Positions 8,270 through 51,889 of a stretch of 64,000 nt of DNA are shown here, piece by piece. Source of the stretch: Candidatus Woesearchaeota archaeon (GTDB taxonomy: Archaea; Nanobdellota; Nanobdellia; Woesearchaeales; ARS49); assembly GCA_016188265.1 (NCBI GenBank), contig JACPID010000005.1, positions 38,126 through 102,125 on the forward strand. Direction: 5' to 3'. The translations under genes were made by a program, and so were the position numbers. How positions within the stretch are numbered: the first letter of the stretch is position 1; each line of letters opens with the position of its first letter. The notes below the pieces were generated by a model, which was given only the letters and a program-made list of their open reading frames with translations, ran no database searches and was not told the DNA's origin.

Positions 8270-8279
8270 TAAATAGAAG

Positions 8280-8789
8280 ATGGCATTTATTACGAAAAAC
8301 GCAAATTTGTTTTTATTATTTTTAATAGTATTAGCTTCTATTGGTTTAGTTGCAGCAACTATTTTTTTTCAGTATAAATTTCAGAATGTAAATCAGAAAC
8401 TGCTTCAAAAAGCAGTTGAATTACAAGATATTAGTAAAGAACTTGAGCAAAAACGCACATTGTTAGAAGGCATTCAACTTGATTTAAGTAAAAAAGAAAA
8501 AAGAGAAGAAGAATTATCAAGTAAGTATGTAGAAGTTGAAGAAGAAAAACAAAAAGTTCAAGAAAAAGCTCAAAGTTTAGAGCAAAAAACAGATATTTTA
8601 GAAGGAAAAGTCGGAGATCTTCAAATAGTTAATCAAAGATTAGAAGCAGTCAATCAAGACCAGGCAAAAGCAATACTTTCTCTAAATAATGATGTTGGCA
8701 TATTAAAAACTCAGAATTTACAATATCAGGCTCAAATTGCAAGATTAGCAAGTGACTTAGCAACTTGCCAAAGCCAGCAAGGAGCTTAA
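8280..8789 (+). CDS. membrane-anchored coiled-coil protein
   Basis: One N-terminal TM followed by about 130 aa of heptad-rich K/E/Q sequence. Confidence 0.4.
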   Translation: MAFITKNANLFLLFLIVLASIGLVAATIFFQYKFQNVNQKLLQKAVELQDISKELEQKRTLLEGIQLDLSKKEKREEELSSKYVEVEEEKQKVQEKAQSLEQKTDILEGKVGDLQIVNQRLEAVNQDQAKAILSLNNDVGILKTQNLQYQAQIARLASDLATCQSQQGA

Positions 8790-8791
8790 TA

Positions 8792-9568
8792 ATGAAAAAA
8801 ATTGAACAAGCGCTAAGGGAATTAAAAAGTACAGTAACTCTTATGGCTTTGTTTAGCAGTATAATTGATTCTTTTGTTGTTTTTCTTGCATCATTTCTTT
8901 TATGCATAATACTTCTTATTCCTTGGTTTTACTCATTTATTCCTCTTTTTCTTTATGGAATCATCCATATATATTCAGAACTTAAAACAGCAAGGTTTTT
9001 GTATATAGAGAAAAAATTGCCTTTTTTATATGAACAGCTTCGAACAGTTGCAGATAATATTCGCAAAGAACATGAAGTTATTGAAGCGCTTAATGAAGAA
9101 GTTCTTATTAAGTTGCGTGCAGTTAAAAATTCTGTATTCTTAAGATTTGGCAAAATTACTAACAGAATCACAACTCTTGTTATTCTTTCATTTCTTATAA
9201 TTATTCTTTCAGCAATGAATATTCAATTATTTGATGTTCCTAAAGCACTTAAAAATGTTCAAAAACAAATTGAGCAGCCTGAGCCAGAAGAACAATACCA
9301 GCAATTAATAACTGGCGGTGAAGATATTATTTTTGGAAATAAATCTGTTGCAGAATTAGGATATCAAGAATTAGAAATTAAGCTTAATCCAATTCAGAGT
9401 GAGATTGATATTGATAAAATTAAAGAACCTGAAAAACTTTCTTTTGAATCAAAATACAGGCCTAAAGAGATTATTGCAACTACAGATATTAGTTATGAAG
9501 AAAACATACCTAAAGATTATCAAAATATTGTTAGGGATTATTTTAGCGGAATAACAACTGCAAGATAA
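8792..9568 (+). CDS. membrane protein (probable ATG start at 8792 with GGAG RBS; the track start at 8765 is TTG)
   Basis: Multiple hydrophobic helices; part of the Bat-like operon. Confidence 0.4.
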   Translation: MKKIEQALRELKSTVTLMALFSSIIDSFVVFLASFLLCIILLIPWFYSFIPLFLYGIIHIYSELKTARFLYIEKKLPFLYEQLRTVADNIRKEHEVIEALNEEVLIKLRAVKNSVFLRFGKITNRITTLVILSFLIIILSAMNIQLFDVPKALKNVQKQIEQPEPEEQYQQLITGGEDIIFGNKSVAELGYQELEIKLNPIQSEIDIDKIKEPEKLSFESKYRPKEIIATTDISYEENIPKDYQNIVRDYFSGITTAR

Positions 9569-9653
9569 ATTGTGTTATAATAAGATTTTATGCCAAAAGA
9601 TATAAATAATACAGCAAATAAAAAGATATGTAAATCATGAAAAGGAGGGATGA

Positions 9654-12155
9654 ATGATGCGTGTTGAAGATGCAAAAAAAGCGTTGGATAAAGTATTTTC
9701 AGAGATGCAGAAAGTAATAGTAGGCCAGGAAGAGCTGCTTGGTGAAATGCTTATATCATTATTGTGCAACAGCCATGCGCTCTTGGAAGGTTATCCTGGA
9801 CTGGCTAAAACATTGGCAGTTAAAACATTATCAGAATTAATGGAATTAAAATTCACTCGTGTACAAAACACTCCTGATTTAATGCCTTCAGATATCACAG
9901 GAACTTATATTATTGAAGAAACAGGTTCAGGCAAAAGAAATTTTAAATTTCAGCCAGGGCCTGTTTTCACAAACATTCTCCTTGCAGACGAGATTAACAG
10001 AGCAACACCAAAAACTCAGTCTGCTTTATTAGAAGCAATGCAGGAAAGGCAAGTTACTGTTGGAAACATGACTTACAAGCTTGAACATCCTTTTTTTGTT
10101 TTAGCCACACAAAACCCTATTGAGCAAGAAGGAAGCTTGGCTTTGAGCGAGTCTGTATTTGTCAATGGGCAATTAAGAACTGGCAAGGAATTATTTGAAA
10201 TTGCTAAAGATAAGTGCATTGCAGAGGATGAAAAAGGAATAAAGTTATATGATTTAAATGCTTGGACTTTTGCATTGAACACATCTGGGAAATTAGAAAA
10301 ACAAAAATGTATGTTGTATACACTGCCTTATAAAGATGAACTGATAGCATTAACAACAAAGACAGGTAAACGATTGATTGTTACAAAAAACCACCTGTTC
10401 TTAATTAACGAAAATGGAATTATTTCTTGGAAGAAAGCTGAAGAGTTAACAAAAAAAGATTACCTTGTTAATCCAAAAAAACTCCCCCCTATAACTCCTT
10501 TAAATGTTATTTCACACGATGAAGCAATTTTGAGGATGAAAAATAAACAAGTTCCAAGTGAAATAACATTTGATGAAGATTTCGCGTTTTGGATTGCATT
10601 TTTGCTATCTGATGGGTACATCGGAGAAAAATGTGTGGAAGCTGTGCAAAAGAATTACCCGGAAGCTCTTGATAGATTTGTTGAAATATCAAAGAAGTAT
10701 GGATTTAACCCGAATGTGTTTACTAATAGAGGTTGCAGGTATGCTAGAATTTATTCAAAACCTCTTGTTGAGTATTTAAGCATTCGCTTCGGGGTAACTG
10801 GAGGAAAAGATAAAGAAATTCCTTCTTGGTTCTTGAGATTCTCTTCAGAAATGACTAAAGAATTCTTGAAAACATTTATTTCTTTAGAGTCTTCACTCAG
10901 AGATAATAGAATAGTTTTCACACAAAAAAGTGAGAAAAATACCAGCATAATATCGTACATGTTATTGCGTGAAGGAATTATTTCTTGGATAAAACACGAC
11001 GGAAGAGTTTTTAGGCTTAAGATTCAAGGTGAAGACTTCCTGAAGTTTATTAAACAATTTGGTTGGATATCTAATGACAAAATAAGGATGATTGATTTAA
11101 ACAGAGCGATTAAGTCAAGTTTTAGGGTTGTTCCAGTTGATAGAAAAGCAATTTTAAGATCAGTTGAACTTCTAGGGCTTAATAGCTTCCATACATTAAG
11201 CGGACATAAAAGTATTACTTCAAGAACTTGGTATGGAAGTTATAAAGGAATAAAAGAAGGAGAGACTGTGATGTCTGTTGATTCATTAAGAGATTTTGTT
11301 AATGATTTAAGAAATGAATTAAACAGCAGATACACTCTGGATTTCTCGAATTTATTGGAAAGTGATCCTAGAACATTTGCTGCAGGCATAGGAATGCCTA
11401 TGACTGAAATTTCACAACATCTTGAGATCTCAAAAAATCAAGTTTGGAGATTATACAGCGAAAACCATTCTTCAAGTGCAGTGCAAATCAAAACCTTCCT
11501 TAAAGAACAACAAACAATTTGCTTAGAAGAAGCTGAAAAACTCCTTCACTATTGTGAAGCATTGCTTAGCGAAGATGTATATTACGATGGGATTAAATCT
11601 ATTGAGTATGTTGAGCCGCAAGGAATGGCTTTTGGTTTAACTGTTCCGGGTTTACAAAACTATCTTGCAGGTTTTGGCGGATGTGGAATAAATCATAATA
11701 CATATCCTTTACCAGAAGCGCAGAGTGATCGTTTTCTGCTTAAAATAAAAGTTACTTATCCAAGCACTCAAGAGGAAATAGAAATTGTTAATCGAGTTGC
11801 TGAAGGAGCAGAAAATCCTGAACTAAAAACAGTTCTTAAGAAACAAGATTTGCTTGCAATGCAGAATTTAACAAAAAAAATTCCTTTGGCAAATGATATT
11901 AAAAAATATGCTGTTGATCTGGTTGTAGCAACTAGAGCGAAAAAAGATTTAATTGAATATGGAGCTTCACCAAGAGCATCTATTGGTCTTGTTTTAGCTG
12001 CAAAAGCGCGAGCTCTTCTTAATGGAAGAAAATATGTCAGCAAAGATGATATTAAAAATATGGCTTTTCCAATTTTAAGGCATAGAATTGTTCCAACTTT
12101 TGAAGCTGAACGCCAAGGACTTAGTGTAGAAGATATTATTAAAAATCTACTATGA
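9654..12155 (+). CDS. MoxR-family AAA+ ATPase interrupted by an intein (extein about 311 aa)
   Basis: Walker A GYPGLAKT and LLADEINRA (Walker B/sensor) in the N-extein; TYPLPEAQSDRF plus the conserved MoxR C-terminal region (VSKDDIKN...ILRHRI) in the C-extein; strong AGGAGG RBS. Confidence 0.8.
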   Translation: MMRVEDAKKALDKVFSEMQKVIVGQEELLGEMLISLLCNSHALLEGYPGLAKTLAVKTLSELMELKFTRVQNTPDLMPSDITGTYIIEETGSGKRNFKFQPGPVFTNILLADEINRATPKTQSALLEAMQERQVTVGNMTYKLEHPFFVLATQNPIEQEGSLALSESVFVNGQLRTGKELFEIAKDKCIAEDEKGIKLYDLNAWTFALNTSGKLEKQKCMLYTLPYKDELIALTTKTGKRLIVTKNHLFLINENGIISWKKAEELTKKDYLVNPKKLPPITPLNVISHDEAILRMKNKQVPSEITFDEDFAFWIAFLLSDGYIGEKCVEAVQKNYPEALDRFVEISKKYGFNPNVFTNRGCRYARIYSKPLVEYLSIRFGVTGGKDKEIPSWFLRFSSEMTKEFLKTFISLESSLRDNRIVFTQKSEKNTSIISYMLLREGIISWIKHDGRVFRLKIQGEDFLKFIKQFGWISNDKIRMIDLNRAIKSSFRVVPVDRKAILRSVELLGLNSFHTLSGHKSITSRTWYGSYKGIKEGETVMSVDSLRDFVNDLRNELNSRYTLDFSNLLESDPRTFAAGIGMPMTEISQHLEISKNQVWRLYSENHSSSAVQIKTFLKEQQTICLEEAEKLLHYCEALLSEDVYYDGIKSIEYVEPQGMAFGLTVPGLQNYLAGFGGCGINHNTYPLPEAQSDRFLLKIKVTYPSTQEEIEIVNRVAEGAENPELKTVLKKQDLLAMQNLTKKIPLANDIKKYAVDLVVATRAKKDLIEYGASPRASIGLVLAAKARALLNGRKYVSKDDIKNMAFPILRHRIVPTFEAERQGLSVEDIIKNLL
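10134..11699 (+). mobile_element. intein (522 aa) with LAGLIDADG homing-endonuclease domain inside MoxR
   Basis: The host sequence NPIEQEG|TYPLPEA is split by the insert. The insert begins with Ser (SLALSESVFVNG, block A), has TxxH (IVTKNHLFL, block B), a LAGLIDADG-like block (FWIAFLLSDGYIGEK), and ends GINHN followed by a +1 Thr. Boundaries are in frame (10134 and 11699). Confidence 0.75.
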
Positions 12156-13024
12156 TTGACATATCATTCCTTAAACAGCTTGATCGTTTGAGCTTGGTAA
12201 TCAACAAAAGAATAACTTCACAATATACTGGAGAACGCGCAACAAAATATACTGGCCAAGGCTTAATCTTTAAAGATTACACTATTTATGCTCCTGGTGA
12301 AGATTTTCGCGCAATTGACTGGAAAGTATTTGGAAGAACTGATAAACTATTTATTAAAAGATTTGAAGAAGAGAGAAATCTAACAATACACATAATAATT
12401 GATTTTAGCGCAAGTATGGATTTTAAAACTAGCAAGTTTAAAAAATCAGAATATGCAGCCATGCTTGCAATTGGATTTGCGTATATGGCTTTAAAGAATA
12501 ATGAAAGATTTGTTGTTTCTACTTTTGCAGAAGGTCTTGACATGTTCAGGCCTAGAAGAGGCAAAAGGCAATTAATGATTTTACTAGACCATTTGAATAA
12601 AAGAACAGCTCAGGGAATTACTAATTTTGAAAAATCAATTTCACAATATAAAGCATTAATTAATACAAAAAGCATGATTGTAGTGATTTCCGATTTTCTC
12701 TATGATGTAGAACAAGTTAAAAATACTTTAGCTAAATTTAAGAATCATAAAGTAAAGCTTATTCAAGTTCTTGACCCTATGGAAGTTGATTTGAATGTTG
12801 AAGGTGATTTTCGTTTAAGAGATCTTGAGACTAAAGAACAATTAAGAACATATATTTCTGGTTTTATGAGAAAAGAGTATGGGAAAAAATTAAGCCAGCA
12901 CCAGATTAATATCAATAATGCAGTAGATCAAATAGGCGCTGAATTTTATTCTTTTTCAACAGAAAAACCTATTTTTGATGCTTTTTATGAAGTCAGCCAG
13001 CACCAACACATGCATTTAGGTTAA
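12152..13024 (+). CDS. DUF58 protein (MoxR partner, vWA-like)
   Basis: FKDYTIYAPGEDFRAIDWKVFGRTDKLFIKRFEEE and IIDFSASMDF are DUF58 hallmarks; ATGA overlap with moxR. Confidence 0.7.
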   Translation: MIDISFLKQLDRLSLVINKRITSQYTGERATKYTGQGLIFKDYTIYAPGEDFRAIDWKVFGRTDKLFIKRFEEERNLTIHIIIDFSASMDFKTSKFKKSEYAAMLAIGFAYMALKNNERFVVSTFAEGLDMFRPRRGKRQLMILLDHLNKRTAQGITNFEKSISQYKALINTKSMIVVISDFLYDVEQVKNTLAKFKNHKVKLIQVLDPMEVDLNVEGDFRLRDLETKEQLRTYISGFMRKEYGKKLSQHQININNAVDQIGAEFYSFSTEKPIFDAFYEVSQHQHMHLG

Positions 13025-13059: not shown

Positions 13060-13809
13060 TCAGGATGAAGATGCACATTCTTGCCTTTTTGCAAATCCAT
13101 AAACTGGGCGATTTGTTTGCTTATAGTTACAGCAATTGATGATCCTGTTTTGATTACATATTTTGTTTTTGCAGGATCGATACCCAATAGTGCTAGGCCC
13201 TCTTCTTCCAATTTCAGGACCGTTTTTCACAATAAATCCTGCTTTTTGCATATTTTCCTGCACAGTTCTTGCACAAGAGTATGTTGTCAAAACTCCTCCT
13301 TTGTTCATTATTTTGTAAACAGATCTGAAACATTTTTCTGTCCAAAGTCCAGGCTCTACGCTTGGCGAAAACGGGTCGTAAAAGCAAATATCAATTCTTT
13401 CTTGAATCTTTTTTATTTGTTTTCTTGCATCACCAAAAATTAATTGAAGTTTTAATTTATCTTGTATTAGTGGATTTTGATTAATTAATTTTTTTATTAA
13501 ATTATAATGCCTGAATTGGTCTGGCAAGTCCTGAATTTTATTCAAAAGTGTTTTATCAATTTCAAGCCCATAAATAATTAACTTTTTTTCATTAATTCCT
13601 AATACATCAAGCAAGCACGCTGTTTTGTATCCAAAACCAAAACAAAAATCCAGAATAACTAATTTGTCTTTCTTAAGCAGTTCAGTTGTTAATGCAGGCT
13701 TAACAAATTTAAGAAGAGCTTCCTGCCTTGCTCCTGCTATAGAATGATAGTGCCCTTTAGAATCATGCTTCAAAGTATAACTGCCGTCTAATGTTTGTAT
13801 AAGCTGCAT
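13060..13809 (-). CDS. MnmC2/DUF752-like SAM-dependent tRNA methyltransferase; the C-terminal tail looks like read-through
   Basis: ILDFCFGFGY, FGDAR and FYDPFSPSVEPGLWT match DUF752 (F-D-G-F-S-P...E-L-W). The last ~40 aa are Cys-rich low complexity and overlap the ORF at 13026-13211 in another frame. Confidence 0.5.
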   Translation of the reverse strand: MQLIQTLDGSYTLKHDSKGHYHSIAGARQEALLKFVKPALTTELLKKDKLVILDFCFGFGYKTACLLDVLGINEKKLIIYGLEIDKTLLNKIQDLPDQFRHYNLIKKLINQNPLIQDKLKLQLIFGDARKQIKKIQERIDICFYDPFSPSVEPGLWTEKCFRSVYKIMNKGGVLTTYSCARTVQENMQKAGFIVKNGPEIGRRGPSTIGYRSCKNKICNQNRIINCCNYKQTNRPVYGFAKRQECASSS

Positions 13810-16635: not shown

Positions 16636-17134
16636 TTTTCTCCAATATAATACTATACGTAAAAACAATTGAAAATATAAATATTTGTATTACAGGGCAC
16701 TGACGCAGTGGTTTCGCTACATTTATTAAAGTGCTAAAATTACTTATGATTATGCATGATTTAAGAAAGGATTTAATTATTATGGGTGTTGCAATCGCTG
16801 TTTTGCTTGGGTCAGGGAATTTATCATCGTCGGACTTAGGTTTTTTTGTTTTTTTATACGTTTTTCAAATACGCAAAATTATGAATTCTGCGTATTATAA
16901 AAACGCAAGATTTAGAATATGGGTTGTACTTTAATAATTGATATGAGCTTAGTTCAATTGTTAAAAAATCAGCATCAGGGTTCAATACAGACAATGACTG
17001 AACCCTAAAGAAAAACATCAGAACCGAAAAATCTGGTTTTGAAAATCAAAAACAAAAAGTTGCATAACTCCAAAATTTAAAGCCTACATGCCTTAAAACA
17101 AGAATTCAAAAAGAACAGGGTTCAATGCTCAAAA

Positions 17135-17205
17135 TGCGCCGACCGGGAATTGAACCCGGATCTCAACCTTGGCAAGGTTGTGTTCTACCGTTGAACCATC
17201 AGCGC
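17135..17205 (-). tRNA. tRNA-Gly (anticodon GCC), 71 nt, CCA not encoded
   Basis: Cloverleaf read from the reverse complement: GCGCTGA acceptor, GTTC/GAAC D-arm, CAACC-TTGCCAA-GGTTG anticodon arm, CCGGG-TTCAATT-CCCGG T-arm, discriminator A. Confidence 0.85.
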
Positions 17206-17306
17206 AGAACTTTACGAGTTCCCTGCGTTCACTCAGTAAAGTTTTTAATTGTGAAGATATTTTACGGTATTATTAAAACTTTTGCTGGCAAAAGAGGTTT
17301 ATCATT

Positions 17307-24285: not shown

Positions 24286-24359
24286 CTGGGATCGGGGAGA
24301 TTCGAACTCCCGACCACACGCACCCCAAGCGTGCATTCTACCAAGCTGAACTACGACCC
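24286..24359 (-). tRNA. tRNA-Pro (anticodon GGG), 74 nt
   Basis: Reverse complement GGGGTCG-TA-GTTC...GAAT-G-CACGC-TTGGGGT-GCGTG-TGGTC-GGGAG-TTCGAAT-CTCCC-CGATCCC-A; TATA-like TTTTTAAGG about 30 nt upstream on the minus strand. Confidence 0.8.
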
Positions 24360-24439
24360 CGAATTAATACAGTAATACCTGGTTGTACCTTAAAAAGTTT
24401 TACAGAAAATCACTTGAACTTACATAAATAATATTTCTA

Positions 24440-43075: not shown

Positions 43076-44164
43076 CTAACCGCCTCCGACTTGGCCAAAT
43101 ACTTCTTGTTCTGGATATACAACAATTCCTTGATCTGTAATTTTCATCGCTACAACCTTTTTCTCAAACTTAGCTCCTCTGATTTTTAATATTTCAATTG
43201 CACTTTCCCTTACTGTTCCTCTTTGAACATTATATAAAATAATAACTCCGTCTGCTAAGAATTCCTCAACACCAGCAGTTGTTAATCTATTTAATCCATA
43301 AGTTCTTTCAGATACTAAAAAACTTGTGACATTGCTTTCTTCCAATAAATTAAATAATTGCTCAATATAAATCCTATAATTTTCTTCTTTGCCATAAAAT
43401 GCACTTGAAATAGCTGTCAAAGAATCAATAATTACTCTATCAGGAGTAAATCCTTTTGGAAATATTAAAGGCTTGATATCAATTAATAGCTCGCCTTTGG
43501 CTCTTTCAAGCATTGCAGTTACTTGCCTTGTTATGTCAAAAGGATTAACTTTCTGAAGAACCAGCAATCCTTTTTTTTCAAGTTCTTCAACATTAAACCC
43601 AAAATCTTTCATATGTTTTTTTAATCGTTCAGGGCTTTCTTCAAAAGTCATGTATAAGCATTTTTCACCTTTGTTTGCTGCATAATTACAAATTTGCAAT
43701 CCCATTATTGTTTTTCCAGTTCCAGGCCCTCCGCATAAAAGTGATGATGTCCCTCTAGGAAATCCTTTATCTAGAAGATCATCAAAACCAGTTACACCTG
43801 TTAATGCCCATTCTTTTGTATCACTTTTTTTTTCTTTTATTGCTTCAGCAACAGTAAACTCAATTCTTTTAGCTGGCGCTTCTAAAAATGGCGCTGGTTT
43901 TATTTTTCTAGCATGATAAAAACTTCTTAAATCTTTAAAAAGCTCATTTTCAGAGTTGGCTTTATAAAAGTCATGGCGCCTTTCTTTTCTACTAGTTAAT
44001 ATGCCTAAATTTGCAAATTTTTTAAGTTCTTTGCTTGCTGTAGCAGGGGCTATTTTAATTAATCTAGCAACTTCCCTAACATTAAACTCTCTGCTAGCTT
44101 CTTCTATAAAAACCCGAAGAATGTTTAATTCTTTAAACACATGTTTGTTTATAGTTTCAAACAT
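43076..44164 (-). CDS. wHTH-fused KaiC/RecA-superfamily ATPase (intact P-loop)
   Basis: N-terminal HTH region (REVARLIKIAPATASKELKKF), then GFDDLLDKGFPRGTSSLLCGGPGTGKT Walker A, and VIIDSLT Walker B-like. Confidence 0.7.
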   Translation of the reverse strand: MFETINKHVFKELNILRVFIEEASREFNVREVARLIKIAPATASKELKKFANLGILTSRKERRHDFYKANSENELFKDLRSFYHARKIKPAPFLEAPAKRIEFTVAEAIKEKKSDTKEWALTGVTGFDDLLDKGFPRGTSSLLCGGPGTGKTIMGLQICNYAANKGEKCLYMTFEESPERLKKHMKDFGFNVEELEKKGLLVLQKVNPFDITRQVTAMLERAKGELLIDIKPLIFPKGFTPDRVIIDSLTAISSAFYGKEENYRIYIEQLFNLLEESNVTSFLVSERTYGLNRLTTAGVEEFLADGVIILYNVQRGTVRESAIEILKIRGAKFEKKVVAMKITDQGIVVYPEQEVFGQVGGG

Positions 44165-44223
44165 ATGTTTAATAATATGAACATAAGTTTAAAAAGATTT
44201 CTATAGCGTAGAATTGAATAATA

Positions 44224-44784
44224 TCACACTGTAATTAATTTGTCACAAAATTGAGAAATAGTTGCTATTAATAATTTAGAAGCATCATCTTCAACAAATA
44301 TAAATAATCCAGCAACACTGCTTGTTCTAATTTGGTTGTTTATTATATAATGTAAGAATTTTGCAGTTAATTCAAGATCATTATAAATAAACAAAGTAGA
44401 TACAGAATCAAAAAGCAAAAAACTAAAATCACCACAATTTAAAGCAGAGGATATTGCAAGAGATAGTTCAGTTAATGACTGAGGCCCTTTTACAAAAGAG
44501 CAATTAACATGTGACAAATCTGTTAAACCAGAATGTTTGCTTATACAATCAATAAAAAACAATTTAGAAATATCTATTTTATTTTGTTTCAAAATGTTTT
44601 TTAAAAAAAAACAAGGAGTATTTAGAGTTACATAAATGCCTTTTAATTTAAGTTTTTCAACTAAAAACTTGATTATTGAAATAGTTGTTTGTTTGTAATT
44701 TTCAGCAGAGGTTGCAATACCATAAACTTTGTTTTTAGAAAATTCATTTAATTCTTTAGTTAAATTCTTGCTATTGTTGTTCAT
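44224..44784 (-). CDS. KaiC-like RecA-fold protein lacking the Walker A P-loop (paralog 1)
   Basis: Retains the KaiC-like blocks FIDCISK, LLFDSVSTLFIYND, FLHYIIN and LFIFVED but has no GxxxxGK[ST]. Confidence 0.5.
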   Translation of the reverse strand: MNNNSKNLTKELNEFSKNKVYGIATSAENYKQTTISIIKFLVEKLKLKGIYVTLNTPCFFLKNILKQNKIDISKLFFIDCISKHSGLTDLSHVNCSFVKGPQSLTELSLAISSALNCGDFSFLLFDSVSTLFIYNDLELTAKFLHYIINNQIRTSSVAGLFIFVEDDASKLLIATISQFCDKLITV

Positions 44785-45345
44785 TTATAATTTGATGCAT
44801 TTATCAGAAAACTGTGAAGTTACTGACATTAGCGCTTCTGAATTTTTTTCATCAACATATAAAAAAAAACCAGCAATATTTAAAGTTCTGATTTGGCTGT
44901 TAATCAAGTAATGTAAGAATTTACCGGTTGTATTTACATCATTATATATTAAAAATGTTGATACAGAATCAAAAAGCAAAAAATCAAATTTTTTTGTATT
45001 AAGCGCAGAAGATATTGCAAGAGATAAATCTGTCAAGCTCTGCGGATTTGAAAAAGAAACTGAAAGATTTGAATTAGGGTTTTCAAATTGCTTGCTAACA
45101 CAATCAATAAAATGCAGATTAGATAGATTAATTTTTCTTTCTTTAAGCTGTTCATGTAATGTTGAACAGGGGGTATTAAGTGAAACATACACTCCTTTAA
45201 AGCCTAAATTATTTATAAAATGTTCAAGTAAAACAAAGATTACCGTATGATAATAATTAGCATCTGTAAGTATCTCATATACTTTTTTTGAATCAATGTC
45301 TTTTAACTCTTTTAATATTTGTTTTTTAATCATTGATACTTCCAT
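44785..45345 (-). CDS. KaiC-like RecA-fold protein lacking the P-loop (paralog 2; probable ATG at 45345, the track start is GTG at 45396)
   Basis: FIDCVSK, LLFDSVSTFLIYND, FLHYLIN; in tandem with paralog 1 and directly abutting it. Confidence 0.5.
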   Translation of the reverse strand: MEVSMIKKQILKELKDIDSKKVYEILTDANYYHTVIFVLLEHFINNLGFKGVYVSLNTPCSTLHEQLKERKINLSNLHFIDCVSKQFENPNSNLSVSFSNPQSLTDLSLAISSALNTKKFDFLLFDSVSTFLIYNDVNTTGKFLHYLINSQIRTLNIAGFFLYVDEKNSEALMSVTSQFSDKCIKL

Positions 45346-45370
45346 AAAAACCCCCCTTGCTTGTTGTTTT

Positions 45371-45423
45371 AGTACGCGCCATAATTTGTAGTACACTCTT
45401 AATGGCGCGTACTATTTAGAAAA
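45371..45423. promoter_or_regulatory. perfect 12-bp inverted repeat (agtacgcgccat ... atggcgcgtact, 29-nt spacer) upstream of the KaiC-like operon, in the divergent region
   Basis: Read directly; the GC-rich palindrome is conspicuous in AT-rich DNA. It sits between the minus-strand KaiC-like operon and the plus-strand RHH genes. Confidence 0.45.
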
Positions 45424-45691
45424 CGAAACTATTGTCTCATTATTTATTTCGTTTTCTATTTGTTCAAAAAAAAATAATTATTTTCAACAATTACGAAAAA
45501 AACAGGTAAATTAATAAACTTTTCTCATTTCAAATAACATGTTATTTTAAAAATCTCTTAAATATGTCTTAGAAATATCTTATATAAATCATAAAAGAAT
45601 CATATACGTTATAAGTATATCGCTTATTGAACATGAATGCAATACTCAGATATCACAAAGTTTATATATTAGATAAAAAAATATAAAGTCA

Positions 45692-45865
45692 ATGAAAAGA
45701 ATTTTAGTAAGCATTCCCGAAGGAACTTGGGGGTTAATAGAAAAATATTTTAAAGGCAAAATTGGTGAAAAAGAATCAGAAATAATAAGAAACATAGTTA
45801 TCGCATATTTAAGTGAAAAAGGCTATCTTAAAAACAATGTCAAAAACAAACTCCATCAAAATTAA
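45692..45865 (+). CDS. small RHH/CopG-like protein (57 aa), tandem copy 1
   Basis: MKRILVSIPEGTWGLIEKYFKGKIGEKESEIIRNIVIAYLSEKGYL; not in the ORF track because it is under 60 aa. Confidence 0.45.
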   Translation: MKRILVSIPEGTWGLIEKYFKGKIGEKESEIIRNIVIAYLSEKGYLKNNVKNKLHQN

Positions 45866-45965
45866 TAAATGATCAATTCTTTTTCTGAAGATATCTCATA
45901 ATATGTATTTAAGTCATATAAAAGTATCATAAGATTTATATATAAGCAATACTGTAAAATAAGTG

Positions 45966-46133
45966 ATGAAGCGAATATTAGTGAGCATTCCTGACGGTAC
46001 TTGGAGAATTATCAAAAAGCATCTGATGGGTAAAATTGGTGAAAAAGAATCAGAAATAATAAGAAACATAGTGCTAGCATACTTAAGTGAAAAAGATTTC
46101 CTTAAAAAAAATAATAATAATAACAATCATTAA
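45966..46133 (+). CDS. small RHH/CopG-like protein (55 aa), tandem copy 2
   Basis: MKRILVSIPDGTWRIIKKHLMGKIGEKESEIIRNIVLAYLSEKDFL; about 80% identical to copy 1, with a similar upstream region. Confidence 0.45.
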   Translation: MKRILVSIPDGTWRIIKKHLMGKIGEKESEIIRNIVLAYLSEKDFLKKNNNNNNH

Positions 46134-46141
46134 AAGATAAC

Positions 46142-46540
46142 ATGCACACTGCACAACTTATTCAGTACTTGTTTGAAATAAGCACAATTATATTACTTTT
46201 ACTTCCAATTGCTATATTGCTAAATCTTTTAAAAAAATCAAAAGGTGATATTCCAAGATCTTTCACATGGTTGACTCTTGGTTTTACTCCATTTTTAGCT
46301 TTTAATTTAATAGACAGCTTAGCGGTGTTTGGCATAGAATTATTGCCTGATGAAGGAACATTAAGCAATGTTTTACTATATCACAGTGTAATACTAATAA
46401 CTATTATAACTGTAGCAGCTTTCTTTTTATGGTTCGACAGAAAATATGTTCAGCCAATTTATTCATTCACAAAAACACAGGATAAAAAAGTAAAAAAAAA
46501 AATTTTCTCCCCCCCCCCAAAAAAAAAACTTTTTTTTTGA
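46142..46540 (+). CDS. small membrane protein (3 TM) whose 3' end runs through homopolymer tracts
   Basis: Three hydrophobic helices; the C-terminus KKVKKKIFSPPPKKKLFF is encoded by A11-C10-A10-T9. Confidence 0.4.
   Translation: MHTAQLIQYLFEISTIILLLLPIAILLNLLKKSKGDIPRSFTWLTLGFTPFLAFNLIDSLAVFGIELLPDEGTLSNVLLYHSVILITIITVAAFFLWFDRKYVQPIYSFTKTQDKKVKKKIFSPPPKKKLFF
46492..46538 (+). repeat. consecutive homopolymer tracts A(11) ttttct C(10) A(10) c T(9)
   Basis: Read directly from 46491-46540. Confidence 0.9.
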
Positions 46541-46679
46541 ATTTTCTGAACAAACAAAGTAAAATGCTAAAGTTATCCGGTTGCGTAGATGCTGAAATAG
46601 CCAACTCTGATGCAATCCTTTCTTATAAGCTAAATTGAAAAAAATTTATAAACTTCATTATATATTAAGGAGTGTATAA

Positions 46680-47237
46680 ATGAAAGAAGTTCAAAAAATA
46701 AAAAAAGAGTTGAGCAATCTGCCTGTTGGAAGTATTGTTCTTTTGGAAACAAGCGCAGAAAATATTTTAACAGTAAGCATTCACTCAATTAAATCATTAA
46801 TAGAACAAGGTTACAATGTTATTATTTTGTCTGTAAGCAGGCCTTGTTTTAATCTTATGAATATCTACGAGAAAAGCAGGATAAACACAGAAAATGTTTT
46901 TATTCTAGACTGTATTTGTAAAAGTCAAGGAATTAAAAGTGAAGAAAAGAAAAATGTAATTCATTTGAAAAGTGTTTCTGCACTAACTGAAATATCTCTT
47001 GCAATTAATGAATGCATTACTAGAATTCCTGGCAAAAAACTAGTTTTTATTGATTCTATAACAACAATGCTGATTTATAATGACCAAAATATATTTTCAA
47101 GATTCTTGCATTACTTATTGACAAAGTTAAGAATTCAAAAAATAAGCGGTTTAATGCTTTCCTTAGAAACAGAAGCTGATAAAGAAGTAATGGCTCAAAT
47201 TGCGCAGCTTTGTGATAGAATAATAAAAATAAAATAA
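46680..47237 (+). CDS. KaiC-like RecA-fold protein lacking the P-loop (paralog 3)
   Basis: FILDCICK, LVFIDSITTMLIYND, FLHYLLT, LMLSLETE; the same architecture as paralogs 1 and 2. Confidence 0.5.
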   Translation: MKEVQKIKKELSNLPVGSIVLLETSAENILTVSIHSIKSLIEQGYNVIILSVSRPCFNLMNIYEKSRINTENVFILDCICKSQGIKSEEKKNVIHLKSVSALTEISLAINECITRIPGKKLVFIDSITTMLIYNDQNIFSRFLHYLLTKLRIQKISGLMLSLETEADKEVMAQIAQLCDRIIKIK

Positions 47238-47352: not shown

Positions 47353-47502
47353 TTCTAAAAACCAGTGAATTGCCAGATTTTGCAATACTAATCTGTTTTT
47401 CCAGACCAAAAACCTTTCTTGAACAACCGAGAATGAACCTCCCTTACTTGAACTGTACGTTGCAAAAGTTTTTAAAACGAAAACAACCACTTCTAAAAAA
47501 GC

Positions 47503-47676
47503 GGGCCTGTAGCTTAGCTTGGTGGAGCAACGGTCTTATATGACGTTGTTTCGCACAACGATCGAAGCTAGCCGTAGGTCGGGGGTTCAAAATGGTTTGT
47601 GGTTAGTGGTTCGTGGTTTGAGGACTGCAAACTACCCACTACAAACTATAAACCATAGAAAGTCCCCTCAGGCCCA
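47503..47676 (+). tRNA. tRNA with two introns (29 nt at 37/38 and about 71 nt in the T-loop); mature 74 nt, anticodon UAU (putative tRNA-Ile)
   Basis: Exons: GGGCCTG-TA-GCTT-AGCTTGGTG-GAGC-A-ACGGT-CTTATA | intron 47541-47569 | A-GCCGT-AGGTC-GGGGG-TTCAAA(A) | intron about 47593-47663 | CCCCT-CAGGCCC-A. All stems pair and the acceptor is a perfect 7 bp. TATA-like tttttaaaa lies about 30 nt upstream. Confidence 0.6.
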
Positions 47677-47777
47677 CTTTTTTTATTCTATAGAAAATAA
47701 CACTAATTTTCATAATTTTTGTTATTTCCTATATTCGACAAACTTTACTATTAATATATGATTATTAAAGTTTGTCG

Positions 47778-48791
47778 CTATAATTCTTCTTCTGGTGGTG
47801 TTAATTCTTCTTCTGAAATTTCTTCAGGCTCTTCTTTTTTTTTATTTATTGCTTCTCTGACTCTTGGATGCAACTCTTCAGGCCCTAAGTCTTCCTTTTC
47901 ATGGAAAGTTTTTCTGTGAATATAATAACCTATTCCTACAATCATTATTATTAAAGCAAGAATAATCATTACAACAGACATGATTGGAAGCCCAAAAATA
48001 TTTTTTTTGTAAACATCAACTAGTTCTGGTTTTTTGTTAGGGCATTTTTCTCTTTCTGATTCAAAAATTTGCCGCCACGAATCTATGCTGCAAGTTAAAA
48101 TATCTTTATCAAGGATGTTTTCAAGTTCTGTTGTTTTTTGAATCTCACTTGAAAATTTTATTAGTGAAAATTGTGAATCACAGTATTGTTGTTGTCCTAA
48201 TCTTGCTAATGTTTTTTTAGCTAGATTGTTACATTCTTCAGGCGTCATTTCTTTTTTTTCAGCAACAGGAGGCTTTTCCGGAGGCTGTGGTGGAAGTTCT
48301 AGCGGTTTTATAAGTTCAGGTGTTGGTGCAATTTCAGGTAGTTTTACTTCAGGTAATTTTTCTTCTTTTGGTTTTTCAGGCTGTACTTTTATAGGTTGGG
48401 TGTATTTAAGATCTAAGGTGTTTTCACAATAGTTTTTAATACAGCTTTCAAAACAATTTGAAAAGTGTTGTTCTGTTCTAAACGGTCCTGTTGCAAGACA
48501 ACTTCTAGTGCATTCTTGATTTGATTTTATTTTTTTTGATTGCGGGCTTTCACAATGAGTGCATGCTAGAGTGCAAAGTTTTCCAACTCCTAATTTATCA
48601 AGCTCAGGATTTCTTAATTTAACAACTGATTCAATACCATTAAAACAATTGCATGCATTGTCATTGCGCCAGTTATTAAGTTTTGAATCTTCCCATGAAC
48701 TTACTTTATCAAATACTTCATGGCTTGCAAATACAATATTTATTGTTATAAGAAAAACAATGAGCGTGCTTATTTTTTTCATTAATAACAC
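47778..48791 (-). CDS. secreted Cys-rich, Pro-rich protein with C-terminal TM anchor and acidic tail
   Basis: Signal peptide, about 14 Cys in the N-terminal domain, PEKPKEEKLPEVKLPEIAPTPELIKPLELPPQPPEKPP linker, and TM LPIMSVVMIILALIIMIVGIGYY. Confidence 0.45.
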   Translation of the reverse strand: MLLMKKISTLIVFLITINIVFASHEVFDKVSSWEDSKLNNWRNDNACNCFNGIESVVKLRNPELDKLGVGKLCTLACTHCESPQSKKIKSNQECTRSCLATGPFRTEQHFSNCFESCIKNYCENTLDLKYTQPIKVQPEKPKEEKLPEVKLPEIAPTPELIKPLELPPQPPEKPPVAEKKEMTPEECNNLAKKTLARLGQQQYCDSQFSLIKFSSEIQKTTELENILDKDILTCSIDSWRQIFESEREKCPNKKPELVDVYKKNIFGLPIMSVVMIILALIIMIVGIGYYIHRKTFHEKEDLGPEELHPRVREAINKKKEEPEEISEEELTPPEEEL

Positions 48792-50963: not shown

Positions 50964-51377
50964 TCATTTTAACAATTTTTCTATTTTCTTTATTATTTTT
51001 TCAGCAAATTCAATTGCTAATTTAGCTTCAGATTCATCACAATTCTCACCATAATATTTTATAGAATTTCTTATTTTTCTCAATCTATCAAACTCAGCAA
51101 TATCACTCTCACTAAATCCTCTACCCATAAGATAAACTATTGAAGCTTCATGAGAAAATGATTTAAATCCATTTAAATACAATAAAGAATCTGCTGCTTC
51201 TCTCATTGCTTCATAAGCATTTTCAAGAACATATTTTGGTTTTTCTTTTCTAAAAATATTCTTAGCTAAGTTAATTCTTTCTACACTATCGATAAATGCT
51301 GCTTTGGATAAATTTATATCTGGACTTTGTTTTTTAACTTCACCTTTTTTTAAAAAAAATTCAAATTCTTTCACCAA
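50964..51377 (-). CDS. HEPN-domain protein
   Basis: ...NAYEAMREAADSLLYLNGFKSFSHEASI... and a RNSIKY (R-x4-Y) motif; the gene overlaps the upstream MNT by 7 nt. Confidence 0.55.
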   Translation of the reverse strand: MVKEFEFFLKKGEVKKQSPDINLSKAAFIDSVERINLAKNIFRKEKPKYVLENAYEAMREAADSLLYLNGFKSFSHEASIVYLMGRGFSESDIAEFDRLRKIRNSIKYYGENCDESEAKLAIEFAEKIIKKIEKLLK

Positions 51378-51889
51378 TATCCCCCCATGATGATTCCATT
51401 ATAAAGATTATGCTGAAATTCTTGACTTATTTTTTTAATTTCTATTTCATGAATATTTATTCTCTTCTTTAAAAATTTTTCATATTTTAAAATGTCAAGA
51501 TTTATATTTTTATTTGTTATTATTGCTATATCAACATCTGATTTTTCTATATCTTCCCCTCTTGAGAAACTGCCAAACAAAATTATAATTTTAGGATTGT
51601 TATACTGTTTAGTTAAATAATCAATAATACTTGAACTATATATTTTTTTTATATTATTTACTCGTTTTAATCTTATAAAAGTAACATTATCTCTATTAGC
51701 CATAACTACCGTCATAATCTTGCCCTTTTTTTTGATTATTAACCCAAGTTCTGCTAATTGATCAGTAGTAGATACTATAGTAGGCATTGATAGTTTAAGT
51801 TTTCTTGATAATTCTCTGAGATGAAATTGTGTAGTTGGATTATCAAAAAACAATTCTAGAATTTTTTCATTGGTAGATTTTTCTAACAT
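51371..51889 (-). CDS. wHTH plus minimal nucleotidyltransferase (MNT) domain protein
   Basis: GSFSRGEDIEKSDVDIAI (GSx9-13DxD); N-terminal HTH LRELSRKLKLSMPTIVSTTDQLAELGLI. Confidence 0.65.
   Translation of the reverse strand: MLEKSTNEKILELFFDNPTTQFHLRELSRKLKLSMPTIVSTTDQLAELGLIIKKKGKIMTVVMANRDNVTFIRLKRVNNIKKIYSSSIIDYLTKQYNNPKIIILFGSFSRGEDIEKSDVDIAIITNKNINLDILKYEKFLKKRINIHEIEIKKISQEFQHNLYNGIIMGGYW

What the first reader, a model, noticed from the sequence alone, without database searches (positions are those of the whole stretch)
47503..47676. tRNA gene with two introns and a UAU anticodon
A perfect cloverleaf is recovered only if a 29-nt segment at canonical position 37/38 and an approximately 71-nt segment inside the T-loop (around 59/60) are removed. 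Both inserts have internal helices. Multi-intron tRNAs with non-canonical intron positions are a hallmark of some archaeal lineages. The mature anticodon reads UAU (Ile). This would fit lineages that lack agmatidine-modified tRNA-Ile2(CAU), as I recall for Nanoarchaeum and Korarchaeum. The six-frame ORF at 47519-47761 is therefore an artefact.
Basis: partly seen in the sequence, partly recalled or inferred. Interest (0 to 1): 0.6.

Follow-up and report, generated by a model that had tools for sequence, protein, structure and literature searches.

The report
Two-intron archaeal isoleucine tRNA gene
This is a real isoleucine tRNA gene (anticodon UAU) from a Woesearchaeota (DPANN) archaeon, interrupted by two protein-spliced introns; the arrangement is common in these archaea and its parts are already described, so it is correct but ordinary.

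Summary
Removing 47541-47569 (29 nt, position 37/38) and 47592-47662 (71 nt, T-loop 59/60) from 47503-47676 gives a perfect 74-nt tRNA-Ile(UAU). ARAGORN and Rfam miss the unspliced gene. The window comes from a Candidatus Woesearchaeota (DPANN) genome assembled from a metagenome. A scan of GTDB species genomes found 119 loci with this D-arm and UAU loop, mostly DPANN. Of 107 genes I could parse (106 of those loci plus the window gene), 103 have the 37/38 intron. Twenty-two, the window included, also have an insert at exactly 59/60. All spliced products are 74 nt and 77-92% identical to the window's, while the inserts align no better than shuffled sequence. Both junctions form bulge-helix-bulge (BHB) motifs. 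In the window both are relaxed: one mismatch in each central helix, and the outer helix of the second is one nt out of register. An archaeal TATA box lies at -33 to -26 and a T-run follows the gene. AUA is 32% of Ile codons here. Every element is already described for DPANN archaea (Fujishima 2011): tRNA-Ile(UAU) with a 37/38 intron, no TiaS, and 59/60 relaxed-BHB introns. Verdict: real, a new member of a known kind, low interest. Absence of TiaS and of tRNA-Ile(CAU) cannot be tested from 64 kb.

The parts
47470..47477 (+). TATA-box-like element TTTTAAAA, at -33 to -26 from the first tRNA base (archaeal promoter)
   Evidence: Read directly. Across 118 family members, TATA-like hexamers pile up at -35 to -28 and AT content peaks at 82-86% at -32 to -27.
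47503..47540 (+). Exon 1: acceptor 5' strand, D-arm, anticodon stem 5' strand and loop nt 32-37 (CTTATA). The anticodon TAT is 47537-47539.
   Evidence: ARAGORN cloverleaf of the spliced sequence; the mature sequence as a whole is 77-92% identical to the parsed homologues.
47541..47569 (+). Intron 1, 29 nt, canonical position 37/38. hBHBh' motif with one A35.G mismatch in the central helix; 6-bp internal hairpin.
   Evidence: 103 of 107 parsed genes have an intron here. 11 of 103 share the GAAG variant that gives the same mismatch.
47570..47591 (+). Exon 2: nt 38, anticodon stem 3' strand, variable loop, T-stem 5' strand and T-loop nt 54-59 (TTCAAA)
   Evidence: This stretch runs straight on into exon 3 in the 85 parsed homologues that lack the T-loop insert.
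47592..47662 (+). Intron 2, 71 nt, T-loop position 59/60. Relaxed BHB: T-stem, 3-nt bulge AGT, helix TTC/GAA, A.A mismatch with an AAA bulge, then a long hairpin built from 7-nt repeats.
   Evidence: 21 other genes have an 18-105 nt insert at the same place, with a conserved ...GAA-NN|T 3' junction.
47663..47676 (+). Exon 3: T-loop nt 60, T-stem 3' strand, acceptor 3' strand and discriminator A73. CCA is not encoded.
47678..47684 (+). Run of 7 T, two bases after the discriminator: likely archaeal transcription termination signal
   Evidence: Read directly. Its function is inferred.

Best explanation
A functional, chromosomally encoded tRNA-Ile(UAU) gene of a Woesearchaeota (DPANN) archaeon, interrupted by two protein-spliced (BHB-type) introns. 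Inferred pathway: transcription starts from a TATA/BRE promoter about 30 bp upstream and stops at the oligo-T run. The ends are trimmed and CCA is added, since it is not encoded. The archaeal splicing endonuclease (EndA) cuts in the 3-nt bulges of the two BHB motifs, one formed by the anticodon loop with intron 1 and one by the T-loop with intron 2. RtcB-type ligase then joins the three exons into a 74-nt tRNA. That tRNA reads the AUA isoleucine codon by direct U34-A pairing. Most archaea instead use an agmatidine-modified tRNA-Ile2(CAU) made by TiaS. Shown here: the gene anatomy, the BHB-like junction structures, the promoter-like and terminator-like signals, conservation of exons against divergence of introns, and heavy AUA use. 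Inferred: actual splicing, charging by IleRS, the state of U34, and absence of TiaS.
For: The spliced product is a perfect cloverleaf tRNA-Ile(tat), and shuffled controls gave 0 of 21,024. 119 genome loci carry this D-arm and UAU loop, mostly DPANN. The window proteins are deposited as Candidatus Woesearchaeota. All 107 parsed spliced products (window included) are 74 nt, and the homologues are 77-92% identical to the window's, while both introns align no better than shuffled sequence. 103 of 107 have the 37/38 intron and 22 of 107 also have a 59/60 insert. For the 59/60 insert, central-helix pairs 1-3 hold in 95-100% of genes, and outer-helix pairs hold in 59-77% against 34-43% in a permuted control, so pairing is kept while sequence changes. 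The T-arm plus intron 2 folds as T-stem, 2-3-nt bulge, UUC/GAA helix, AAA bulge and hairpin at -39 kcal/mol, z = -6.0. Only the 37/38 placement gives U33 and R37. Four intron-less homologues have a contiguous CTTATAC loop, and unsplit homologues have TTCRAAT T-loops. TATA-like hexamers peak at -35 to -28 across the family, and the window has TTTTAAAA at -33 to -26. AUA is 32% of Ile codons, 27.6 per 1000. Literature: ARMAN archaea have tRNA-Ile(UAU) with a 37/38 intron, and relaxed-BHB 59/60 introns that EndA cleaves in vitro (PMC3239211).
Against: Neither BHB in the window is strict. Both have a purine-purine mismatch at the fourth central-helix pair (A35.G and A57.A), and the outer helix of intron 2 is one nt out of strict register. 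The unconstrained MFE of the whole precursor (-77.5 kcal/mol) pairs exon 1 with intron 1 instead of forming the cloverleaf, and the cloverleaf conformer scores -69.5. No expression or splicing data were available. No EndA, RtcB or IleRS gene lies in the window, so the enzyme's specificity is unknown. CTTATA was part of the search pattern, so its conservation in the family is circular.
Confidence: 0.9

Rival explanations
1. A tRNA pseudogene. The 37/38 intron is genuine, but the 71-nt heptad-repeat hairpin in the T-loop is a recent unspliceable insertion (for example a slippage-expanded palindrome) that has inactivated the gene.
For: The intron 2 BHB is relaxed: an A.A mismatch and an outer helix one nt out of register. 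The insert is an unusual hairpin built from 7-nt tandem repeats and found nowhere else in the window. No close relative carrying the same insert was found.
Against: The insert sits at exactly the 59/60 site used by 21 other genes and has the family's conserved 3' junction (GAA-AG|T) next to the T-stem. 7 of the 22 two-intron genes (window included) lack the fourth central-helix pair and 8 of 22 lack the first outer-helix pair in register, so relaxed motifs are normal in this family. The exons show no decay: 21 of 21 stem pairs, U33, A37, TTCAAAT and A73. The promoter-like and terminator-like signals are intact. AUA is heavily used. Relaxed 59/60 motifs are cleaved by DPANN EndA in vitro (PMC3239211).
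Confidence: 0.06
2. The splice sites are placed differently, so the mature tRNA has another anticodon (UAC-Val, UGC-Ala or AGC-Ala) rather than UAU.
For: Sliding the 29-nt deletion within the anticodon loop keeps all 21 stem pairs, and ARAGORN calls some of these products as tRNAs.
Against: All these alternatives place T at position 37, and some also lose U33. They would put the cleavage sites inside the BHB central helix instead of in its 3-nt bulges. The 3' end of the intron varies among homologues (TAAG, TAGG, GAAG, TGAG...), so it cannot encode a conserved anticodon. Intron-less homologues carry a contiguous CTTATAC loop.
Confidence: 0.02
3. The region is protein-coding (the 80-aa ORF at 47519-47761) and the tRNA-like fold is coincidental.
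For: An ORF of 80 codons exists on the + strand.
Against: It has a TTG start, no Pfam family, and half of it lies in a 58% GC structured RNA with the rest in an AT-rich spacer. More than 100 homologous loci conserve the tRNA exons but not the inserts, the opposite of what a coding frame would show. Shuffles gave 0 of 21,024.
Confidence: 0.01

Closest known systems
ARMAN (Micrarchaeota/Parvarchaeota) tRNA-Ile(UAU) with a 37/38 intron, and ARMAN-2 tRNAs with 59/60 T-loop introns (Fujishima et al. 2011, PMC3239211)
   Same: The superphylum (DPANN), the anticodon UAU, a BHB intron at 37/38, and non-canonical introns at 59/60 with a relaxed BHB. In ARMAN the UAU tRNA goes with loss of TiaS and of tRNA-Ile(CAU).
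   Different: In ARMAN-2 the 59/60 introns were described in tRNA-Cys and tRNA-Pro, not in tRNA-Ile(UAU), and they are short (13 nt for Cys). Here both introns lie in one tRNA-Ile(UAU) gene of a Woesearchaeon, and the T-loop intron is 71 nt. The endonuclease type of this genome is unknown.
tRNA-Ile(UAU) of Nanoarchaeum equitans and Korarchaeum cryptofilum (PMC6000648)
   Same: Archaeal AUA decoder with a UAU anticodon. The Korarchaeum gene has one intron.
   Different: No T-loop intron is reported for those genes. That survey found UAU in only 2 of 167 genomes and read them as species-specific gains, whereas the scan here found it in more than 100 species-level genomes, mostly DPANN.
Multi-intron archaeal tRNA genes of Thermoproteales and other TACK archaea (Sugahara 2007/2008 and Marck & Grosjean 2003, as cited in PMC4090602)
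   Same: Several BHB-type introns per gene, non-canonical positions, relaxed hBH/HBh' motifs.
   Different: A different lineage, and a different way of giving the endonuclease broad specificity (L1/CSL loop in TACK against L3 in DPANN, PMC5829648).
[quoted passage not shown]
   Same: The same isoacceptor, an anticodon-loop intron that pairs with the anticodon, and in C. merolae also a T-arm intron. There the T-arm intron blocks Psi55 formation by Pus4 until it is removed.
   Different: Those are eukaryotic genes processed by the Sen complex. No evidence here for intron-dependent modification in archaea.

Membership tests
tRNA (cloverleaf, Rfam RF00005 type) | 7-bp acceptor, 4-bp D, 5-bp anticodon and 5-bp T stems; U8, A14, G18G19, U33, purine 37, T-loop TTCRANY; a discriminator base | tested here: met
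   ARAGORN on the spliced sequence gives all 21 stem pairs, loop CTTATAA, T-loop TTCAAAT and A73. The unspliced gene is missed by ARAGORN and by Rfam.
Archaeal tRNA-Ile(UAU) (AUA decoder of TiaS-less archaea) | Anticodon UAU in the mature tRNA | tested here: met
   TAT at 47537-47539. Only the 37/38 (or 38/39) splice placement gives U33 and R37, and BHB geometry places the cuts there.
Archaeal tRNA-Ile(UAU) (AUA decoder of TiaS-less archaea) | Sequence homology to other archaeal tRNA-Ile(UAU) genes | tested here: met
   77-92% identity of the 74-nt product to the parsed genes from DPANN genomes. One Asgard gene (L054) also carries the UAU loop and an insert after CTTATA (read by eye).
Archaeal tRNA-Ile(UAU) (AUA decoder of TiaS-less archaea) | The genome lacks tiaS and tRNA-Ile2(CAU) | not testable with these tools
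   Only 64 kb is available. No Pfam hit to TiaS among the 50 window ORFs scanned, which include every ORF of 300 aa or more, and no CAU tRNA in the window. This says nothing about the rest of the genome.
Archaeal tRNA-Ile(UAU) (AUA decoder of TiaS-less archaea) | Charged with isoleucine and decodes AUA | not testable with these tools
   A35, U36, A37 and A73 are present and AUA is 32% of Ile codons. Aminoacylation needs an experiment.
BHB-type (EndA-spliced) archaeal tRNA intron, canonical 37/38 | hBHBh': two 3-nt bulges separated by a 4-bp helix and flanked by helices, with the splice sites in the bulges | tested here: met
   Anticodon stem; 3' bulge C-T-A38; central helix C32:G, U33:A, U34:A, A35.G (one mismatch); 5' bulge U36-A37-U; outer helix G:C, A:U and then 6 bp. 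The family keeps these central pairs in 85-98% of 103 genes.
BHB-type archaeal tRNA intron, non-canonical 59/60 | A BHB, or relaxed hBH/HBh', motif whose bulges hold the 59/60 splice sites | tested here: met
   Relaxed form: T-stem; 3' bulge A-G-U60; central helix U54:A, U55:A, C56:G, A57.A; AAA on the 5' side; a 13-bp outer helix one nt out of strict register. The strict hBHBh' form is not met in the window. 6 of 22 family members meet it.
BHB-type archaeal tRNA intron | A cognate splicing endonuclease with broad (relaxed-BHB) specificity, and RtcB ligase, in the genome | not testable with these tools
   Neither gene is in the window. DPANN EndAs usually carry the L3 loop linked to disrupted tRNA genes (PMC5829648).
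Intron-encoded box C/D guide RNA (as in the euryarchaeal tRNA-Trp intron) | C box RUGAUGA and D box CUGA within the intron | tested here: not met
   Neither intron contains TGATGA or CTGA (sequence). No Rfam family at E of 10 or less apart from chance miRNA-hairpin hits far below their thresholds.
Self-splicing group I intron in a tRNA gene | A P1-P9 ribozyme core of over 200 nt, inserted in the anticodon loop | tested here: not met
   The inserts are 29 and 71 nt, and there is no Intron_gpI hit in the permissive Rfam scan.

The most novel reading that the evidence does not exclude
The 37/38 intron is kept in 103 of 107 parsed archaeal tRNA-Ile(UAU) genes, against roughly 20% of neighbouring Glu, Gly and Val tRNAs in the same loci (a noisy ARAGORN baseline). 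It may be retained because it is needed for an intron-dependent modification of the UAU anticodon, as for Psi34/Psi36 in eukaryotic tRNA-Ile(UAU). On this reading DPANN archaea use a eukaryote-like AUA decoding system, and the added T-loop intron imposes an order of maturation by keeping the T-loop from being modified or used until it is spliced out.
Probability: 0.15. Interest if true: 0.6.

Novelty: new member of a known kind. Interest (0 to 1): 0.22.

Why it matters
For this locus the value is mostly practical. Standard tRNA finders (ARAGORN, the Rfam tRNA model) miss the gene completely. An annotation relying on those two tools would lack an AUA decoder for a codon that makes up a third of isoleucine codons, and could report a spurious 80-aa ORF in its place. 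More broadly, the scan shows that tRNA-Ile(UAU) is a widespread DPANN trait found in more than 100 species-level genomes, not a rarity of two archaea as a 2018 survey of cultured genomes suggested. Its anticodon-loop intron is almost always retained. That supports the view that DPANN archaea replaced the agmatidine/TiaS system, and it raises a testable question about intron-dependent anticodon modification.

Tried and rejected
(1) My first homologue parser was off by one at the acceptor start and found almost nothing; fixed. (2) My first regex scan for hidden intron-containing tRNAs missed even the known genes because of greedy partitioning. The redo recovers the target and the two known tRNAs, plus a few false hits inside coding regions, so I see no further hidden tRNAs in the window. 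(3) The permissive Rfam scan of 47400-47800 gave only chance miRNA or snoRNA hairpin hits far below their thresholds. (4) The search for the heptad repeat elsewhere in the window found only chance-level matches. (5) The metagenome scan for close relatives gave one locus (L121), a one-intron gene resembling L021, so nothing was learned about the heptad hairpin. (6) Exact-protein look-ups of neighbours found Logan contigs of the same population, but they end before the tRNA. (7) Unconstrained folding of the whole precursor does not reproduce the cloverleaf; I treat this as a limit of MFE prediction and list it as a caveat. (8) I do not count conservation of CTTATA in the family, because it was part of the search pattern. 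(9) I could not test for TiaS in the lineage, because no TiaS sequence was available to use as a query.

Full report
OBSERVATION. The sequence at 47503-47676 (+) reads GGGCCTG-TA-GCTT-AGCTTGGTG-GAGC-A-ACGGT-CTTATA | 29 nt | A-GCCGT-AGGTC-GGGGG-TTCAAA | 71 nt | T-CCCCT-CAGGCCC-A. ARAGORN and the Rfam tRNA model find only two tRNAs in the window (Gly-GCC at 17134-17206 and Pro-GGG at 24287-24360) and nothing here, even with a permissive Rfam scan. After removing 47541-47569 and 47592-47662, ARAGORN reports a 74-nt tRNA-Ile(tat) with all stems paired, T-loop TTCAAAT and discriminator A. With only the T-loop insert removed it reports a 29-nt anticodon-loop intron. With the T-loop insert left in it reports nothing.

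CHANCE. A reader who may delete any two segments has many degrees of freedom. I deleted every possible pair of 29-nt and 71-nt segments. From 8 shuffles of the region, 0 of 21,024 products were called as tRNA, against 262 of 2,628 from the real sequence. The real calls form a neighbourhood around the proposed sites. Both inserts lie in loops, so sliding a deletion does not break any stem. Stem pairing alone therefore does not fix the splice sites or the anticodon, and alternative loops would read TAC, TGC or AGC. Only the 37/38 (or 38/39) placement gives both U33 and a purine at position 37.

ORGANISM. The window is about 31% GC and encodes archaeal proteins: aEF-1alpha, Cbf5, aCPSF1/FttA, L15e, GlyRS, CofD and KaiC-like ATPases. 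Four of its proteins are deposited at NCBI as MBI2564657, MBI2564669, MBI2564672 and MBI2564711 from a Candidatus Woesearchaeota archaeon, on a 109,812-bp contig. This is a DPANN genome assembled from a metagenome.

RELATIVES. I scanned one genome per GTDB species with a degenerate pattern covering the D-arm, the anticodon stem and the CTTATA loop. Most are Woese-, Nano-, Aenigmat-, Undin- or Micrarchaeota, and one is the Asgard Sigynarchaeum. I could parse 107 genes as a full cloverleaf (106 of those loci plus the window gene). Of these, 81 have an insert only at 37/38, 22 (the window included) have that insert plus a second one of 18-105 nt between TTCAAA and the last T-loop base, and 4 have no intron. 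Twelve further sequences were truncated or more complex. All 107 spliced products are exactly 74 nt, and the homologues are 77-92% identical to the window's. Intron 1 and intron 2 align to the window's introns no better than shuffled sequence: 0.33-0.65 against a shuffled mean of 0.49, and 0.17-0.61 against 0.39. Conserved exons with diverged inserts are the signature of real introns. The two-intron state clusters by exon similarity: 14 of 22 nearest neighbours are also two-intron, against a background of 0.21. The closest gene (L063, 92% identical, Woesearchaeota) also has two introns.

BHB MOTIFS. I scored the canonical hBHBh' register: the exon stem, a 3-nt bulge made of the last two intron bases and the first exon base, a 4-bp central helix between loop bases 1-4 and intron bases -3 to -6, a 3-nt bulge, and an outer helix starting at i2:i-7. 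At 37/38 (n = 103) the four central pairs form in 98, 94, 94 and 85% of genes. These columns barely vary, so they say little about covariation. At 59/60 (n = 22) the central pairs form in 95, 100, 100 and 68% of genes. The four outer-helix pairs form in 64, 77, 77 and 59%, against 34-43% when the 3' half is taken from another gene. Pairing is thus kept while the sequences differ. In the window, intron 1 has the anticodon stem, bulge C-T-A38, central helix C32:G, U33:A, U34:A with an A35.G mismatch, bulge U36-A37-U, and an outer helix of G:C, A:U and then 6 bp. Eleven of 103 genes share the GAAG ending that gives this mismatch. Intron 2 has the T-stem, bulge A-G-U60, central helix U54:A, U55:A, C56:G with an A57.A mismatch, three A on the 5' side, and a 13-bp helix that is one nt out of the strict register. 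RNAfold predicts this architecture for the T-arm plus intron 2 at -39 kcal/mol, z = -6.0. Both motifs are therefore present but relaxed. Relaxed 59/60 motifs are cut in vitro by the ARMAN-2 epsilon2 endonuclease (PMC3239211), and DPANN EndAs generally carry the L3 insert that goes with disrupted tRNA genes (PMC5829648). Caveat: the unconstrained MFE of the whole 174-nt precursor (-77.5 kcal/mol) pairs exon 1 with intron 1, and the cloverleaf conformer scores -69.5.

EXPRESSION SIGNALS AND NEED. TTTTAAAA lies at -33 to -26. In the family, TATA-like hexamers peak at -35 to -28 and AT content peaks at 82-86% at -32 to -27. Seven T follow two bases after A73, and CCA is not encoded. In 31 window ORFs (14,075 codons) AUA is 27.6 per 1000, which is 32% of Ile codons and more frequent than AUG. 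The cell needs an AUA decoder.

OVERLAPPING ORF. The ORF at 47519-47761 starts with TTG inside the D-loop, runs through both introns into the AT-rich spacer, and matches no Pfam family. The family conserves the exons and not the inserts, which is incompatible with a coding frame. It is an artefact.

COMPARISON WITH WHAT IS KNOWN. tRNA-Ile(UAU) was reported for Nanoarchaeum and Korarchaeum, only 2 of 167 genomes in a 2018 survey (PMC6000648). It was also reported for three ARMAN lineages, which lack TiaS and tRNA-Ile(CAU) and whose Ile(UAU) gene has a 25-nt 37/38 intron. The same paper describes 59/60 introns with relaxed BHB motifs in ARMAN-2 tRNA-Cys and tRNA-Pro (PMC3239211). Multi-intron tRNA genes are well known in archaea (PMC4090602). 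The red alga C. merolae has a tRNA-Ile(UAU) gene with D-, anticodon- and T-arm introns (PMC9602550). Every element is thus described, and the combination recurs in about a fifth of the retrieved DPANN genes. The window gene is a new member of a known kind.

WHAT REMAINS OPEN. Absence of TiaS and of tRNA-Ile(CAU) in this genome cannot be tested from 64 kb: none is in the window, which proves nothing. Splicing, charging and the modification state of U34 are all inferred. One pattern seems worth a follow-up. The 37/38 intron is present in 103 of 107 parsed Ile(UAU) genes but in only about 20% (16 of 78) of the Glu, Gly and Val tRNAs found by ARAGORN in the same loci (this baseline is noisy). In yeast the intron of tRNA-Ile(UAU) is required for Psi34/Psi36 formation (PMC4090602, PMC11408192). 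An analogous dependence in archaea is not excluded and is not shown.

Noticed in passing
window 47593-47653: The 71-nt T-loop intron is a hairpin whose arms are themselves tandem 7-nt repeats: TGGTTNG x3.7 on the 5' arm and ACTACAA-like x4.3 on the 3' arm. The motif occurs nowhere else in the window above chance. How both arms of a hairpin expand in step is unexplained.
   Followed up: partly
L023, L035, L061 (Aenigmatarchaeota); L096: These tRNA-Ile(UAU) genes could not be parsed with two inserts. L096 appears to have an insert between the T-stem and T-loop (53/54). The three Aenigmatarchaeota genes seem to have at least three inserts, including one near the anticodon-stem 3' strand or the variable loop.
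   Followed up: no
L054 (Candidatus Sigynarchaeum springense, Asgard): An Asgard genome also carries a tRNA-Ile(UAU) gene with an insert of about 28 nt after CTTATA (read by eye; the parser missed it because its T-loop is ATCGAAT). The UAU decoder is therefore not confined to DPANN and Korarchaeota.
   Followed up: no
L088; also L005, L008, L011, L024 and others: L088 is deposited as 'Candidatus Paceibacterota bacterium' yet carries an archaeal-type intron-containing tRNA-Ile(UAU). Many 'binchicken' MAGs labelled 'uncultured Methanosarcinales' carry DPANN-like versions. These are probably taxonomic mislabels or contaminated bins.
   Followed up: no
119 homologous loci: Other tRNAs that ARAGORN finds often in the same 8-kb loci as tRNA-Ile(UAU) are Glu(UUC) 38, Gly(GCC) 25, Ser(UGA) 16 and Val(UAC) 15. 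The window gene stands alone; its nearest tRNA is 23 kb away.
   Followed up: no
window 13060-13809 (-): This ORF has a PF05430 (Methyltransf_30) domain (E = 2.9e-28). From my own knowledge this is the methyltransferase domain of MnmC-type enzymes that modify wobble U34. It could bear on how U34-containing tRNAs are modified in this organism.
   Followed up: no
window 9654-12155 (+): A MoxR-type AAA ATPase interrupted by an intein with a LAGLIDADG homing-endonuclease domain. It sits within a BatA/VWA/DUF58 gene cluster (3987-13024).
   Followed up: no
window 43076-47237: Just upstream of the tRNA there is one full KaiC-like ATPase with an N-terminal HTH (43076-44164, -) and three short DUF7504/KaiC-related paralogues (44224-44784, 44785-45396 and 46680-47237).
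   Followed up: no
window 50964-51889 (-): An adjacent HEPN-domain ORF and nucleotidyltransferase-domain ORF, which looks like a HEPN/MNT toxin-antitoxin pair.
   Followed up: no
L122-L124 (Logan assemblies SRR12113383, SRR12113422, SRR12113424): Contigs from other runs encode proteins identical to the window's but end on either side of the 45.4-48.9 kb stretch that holds the tRNA, so independent assemblies break around this locus.
   Followed up: no
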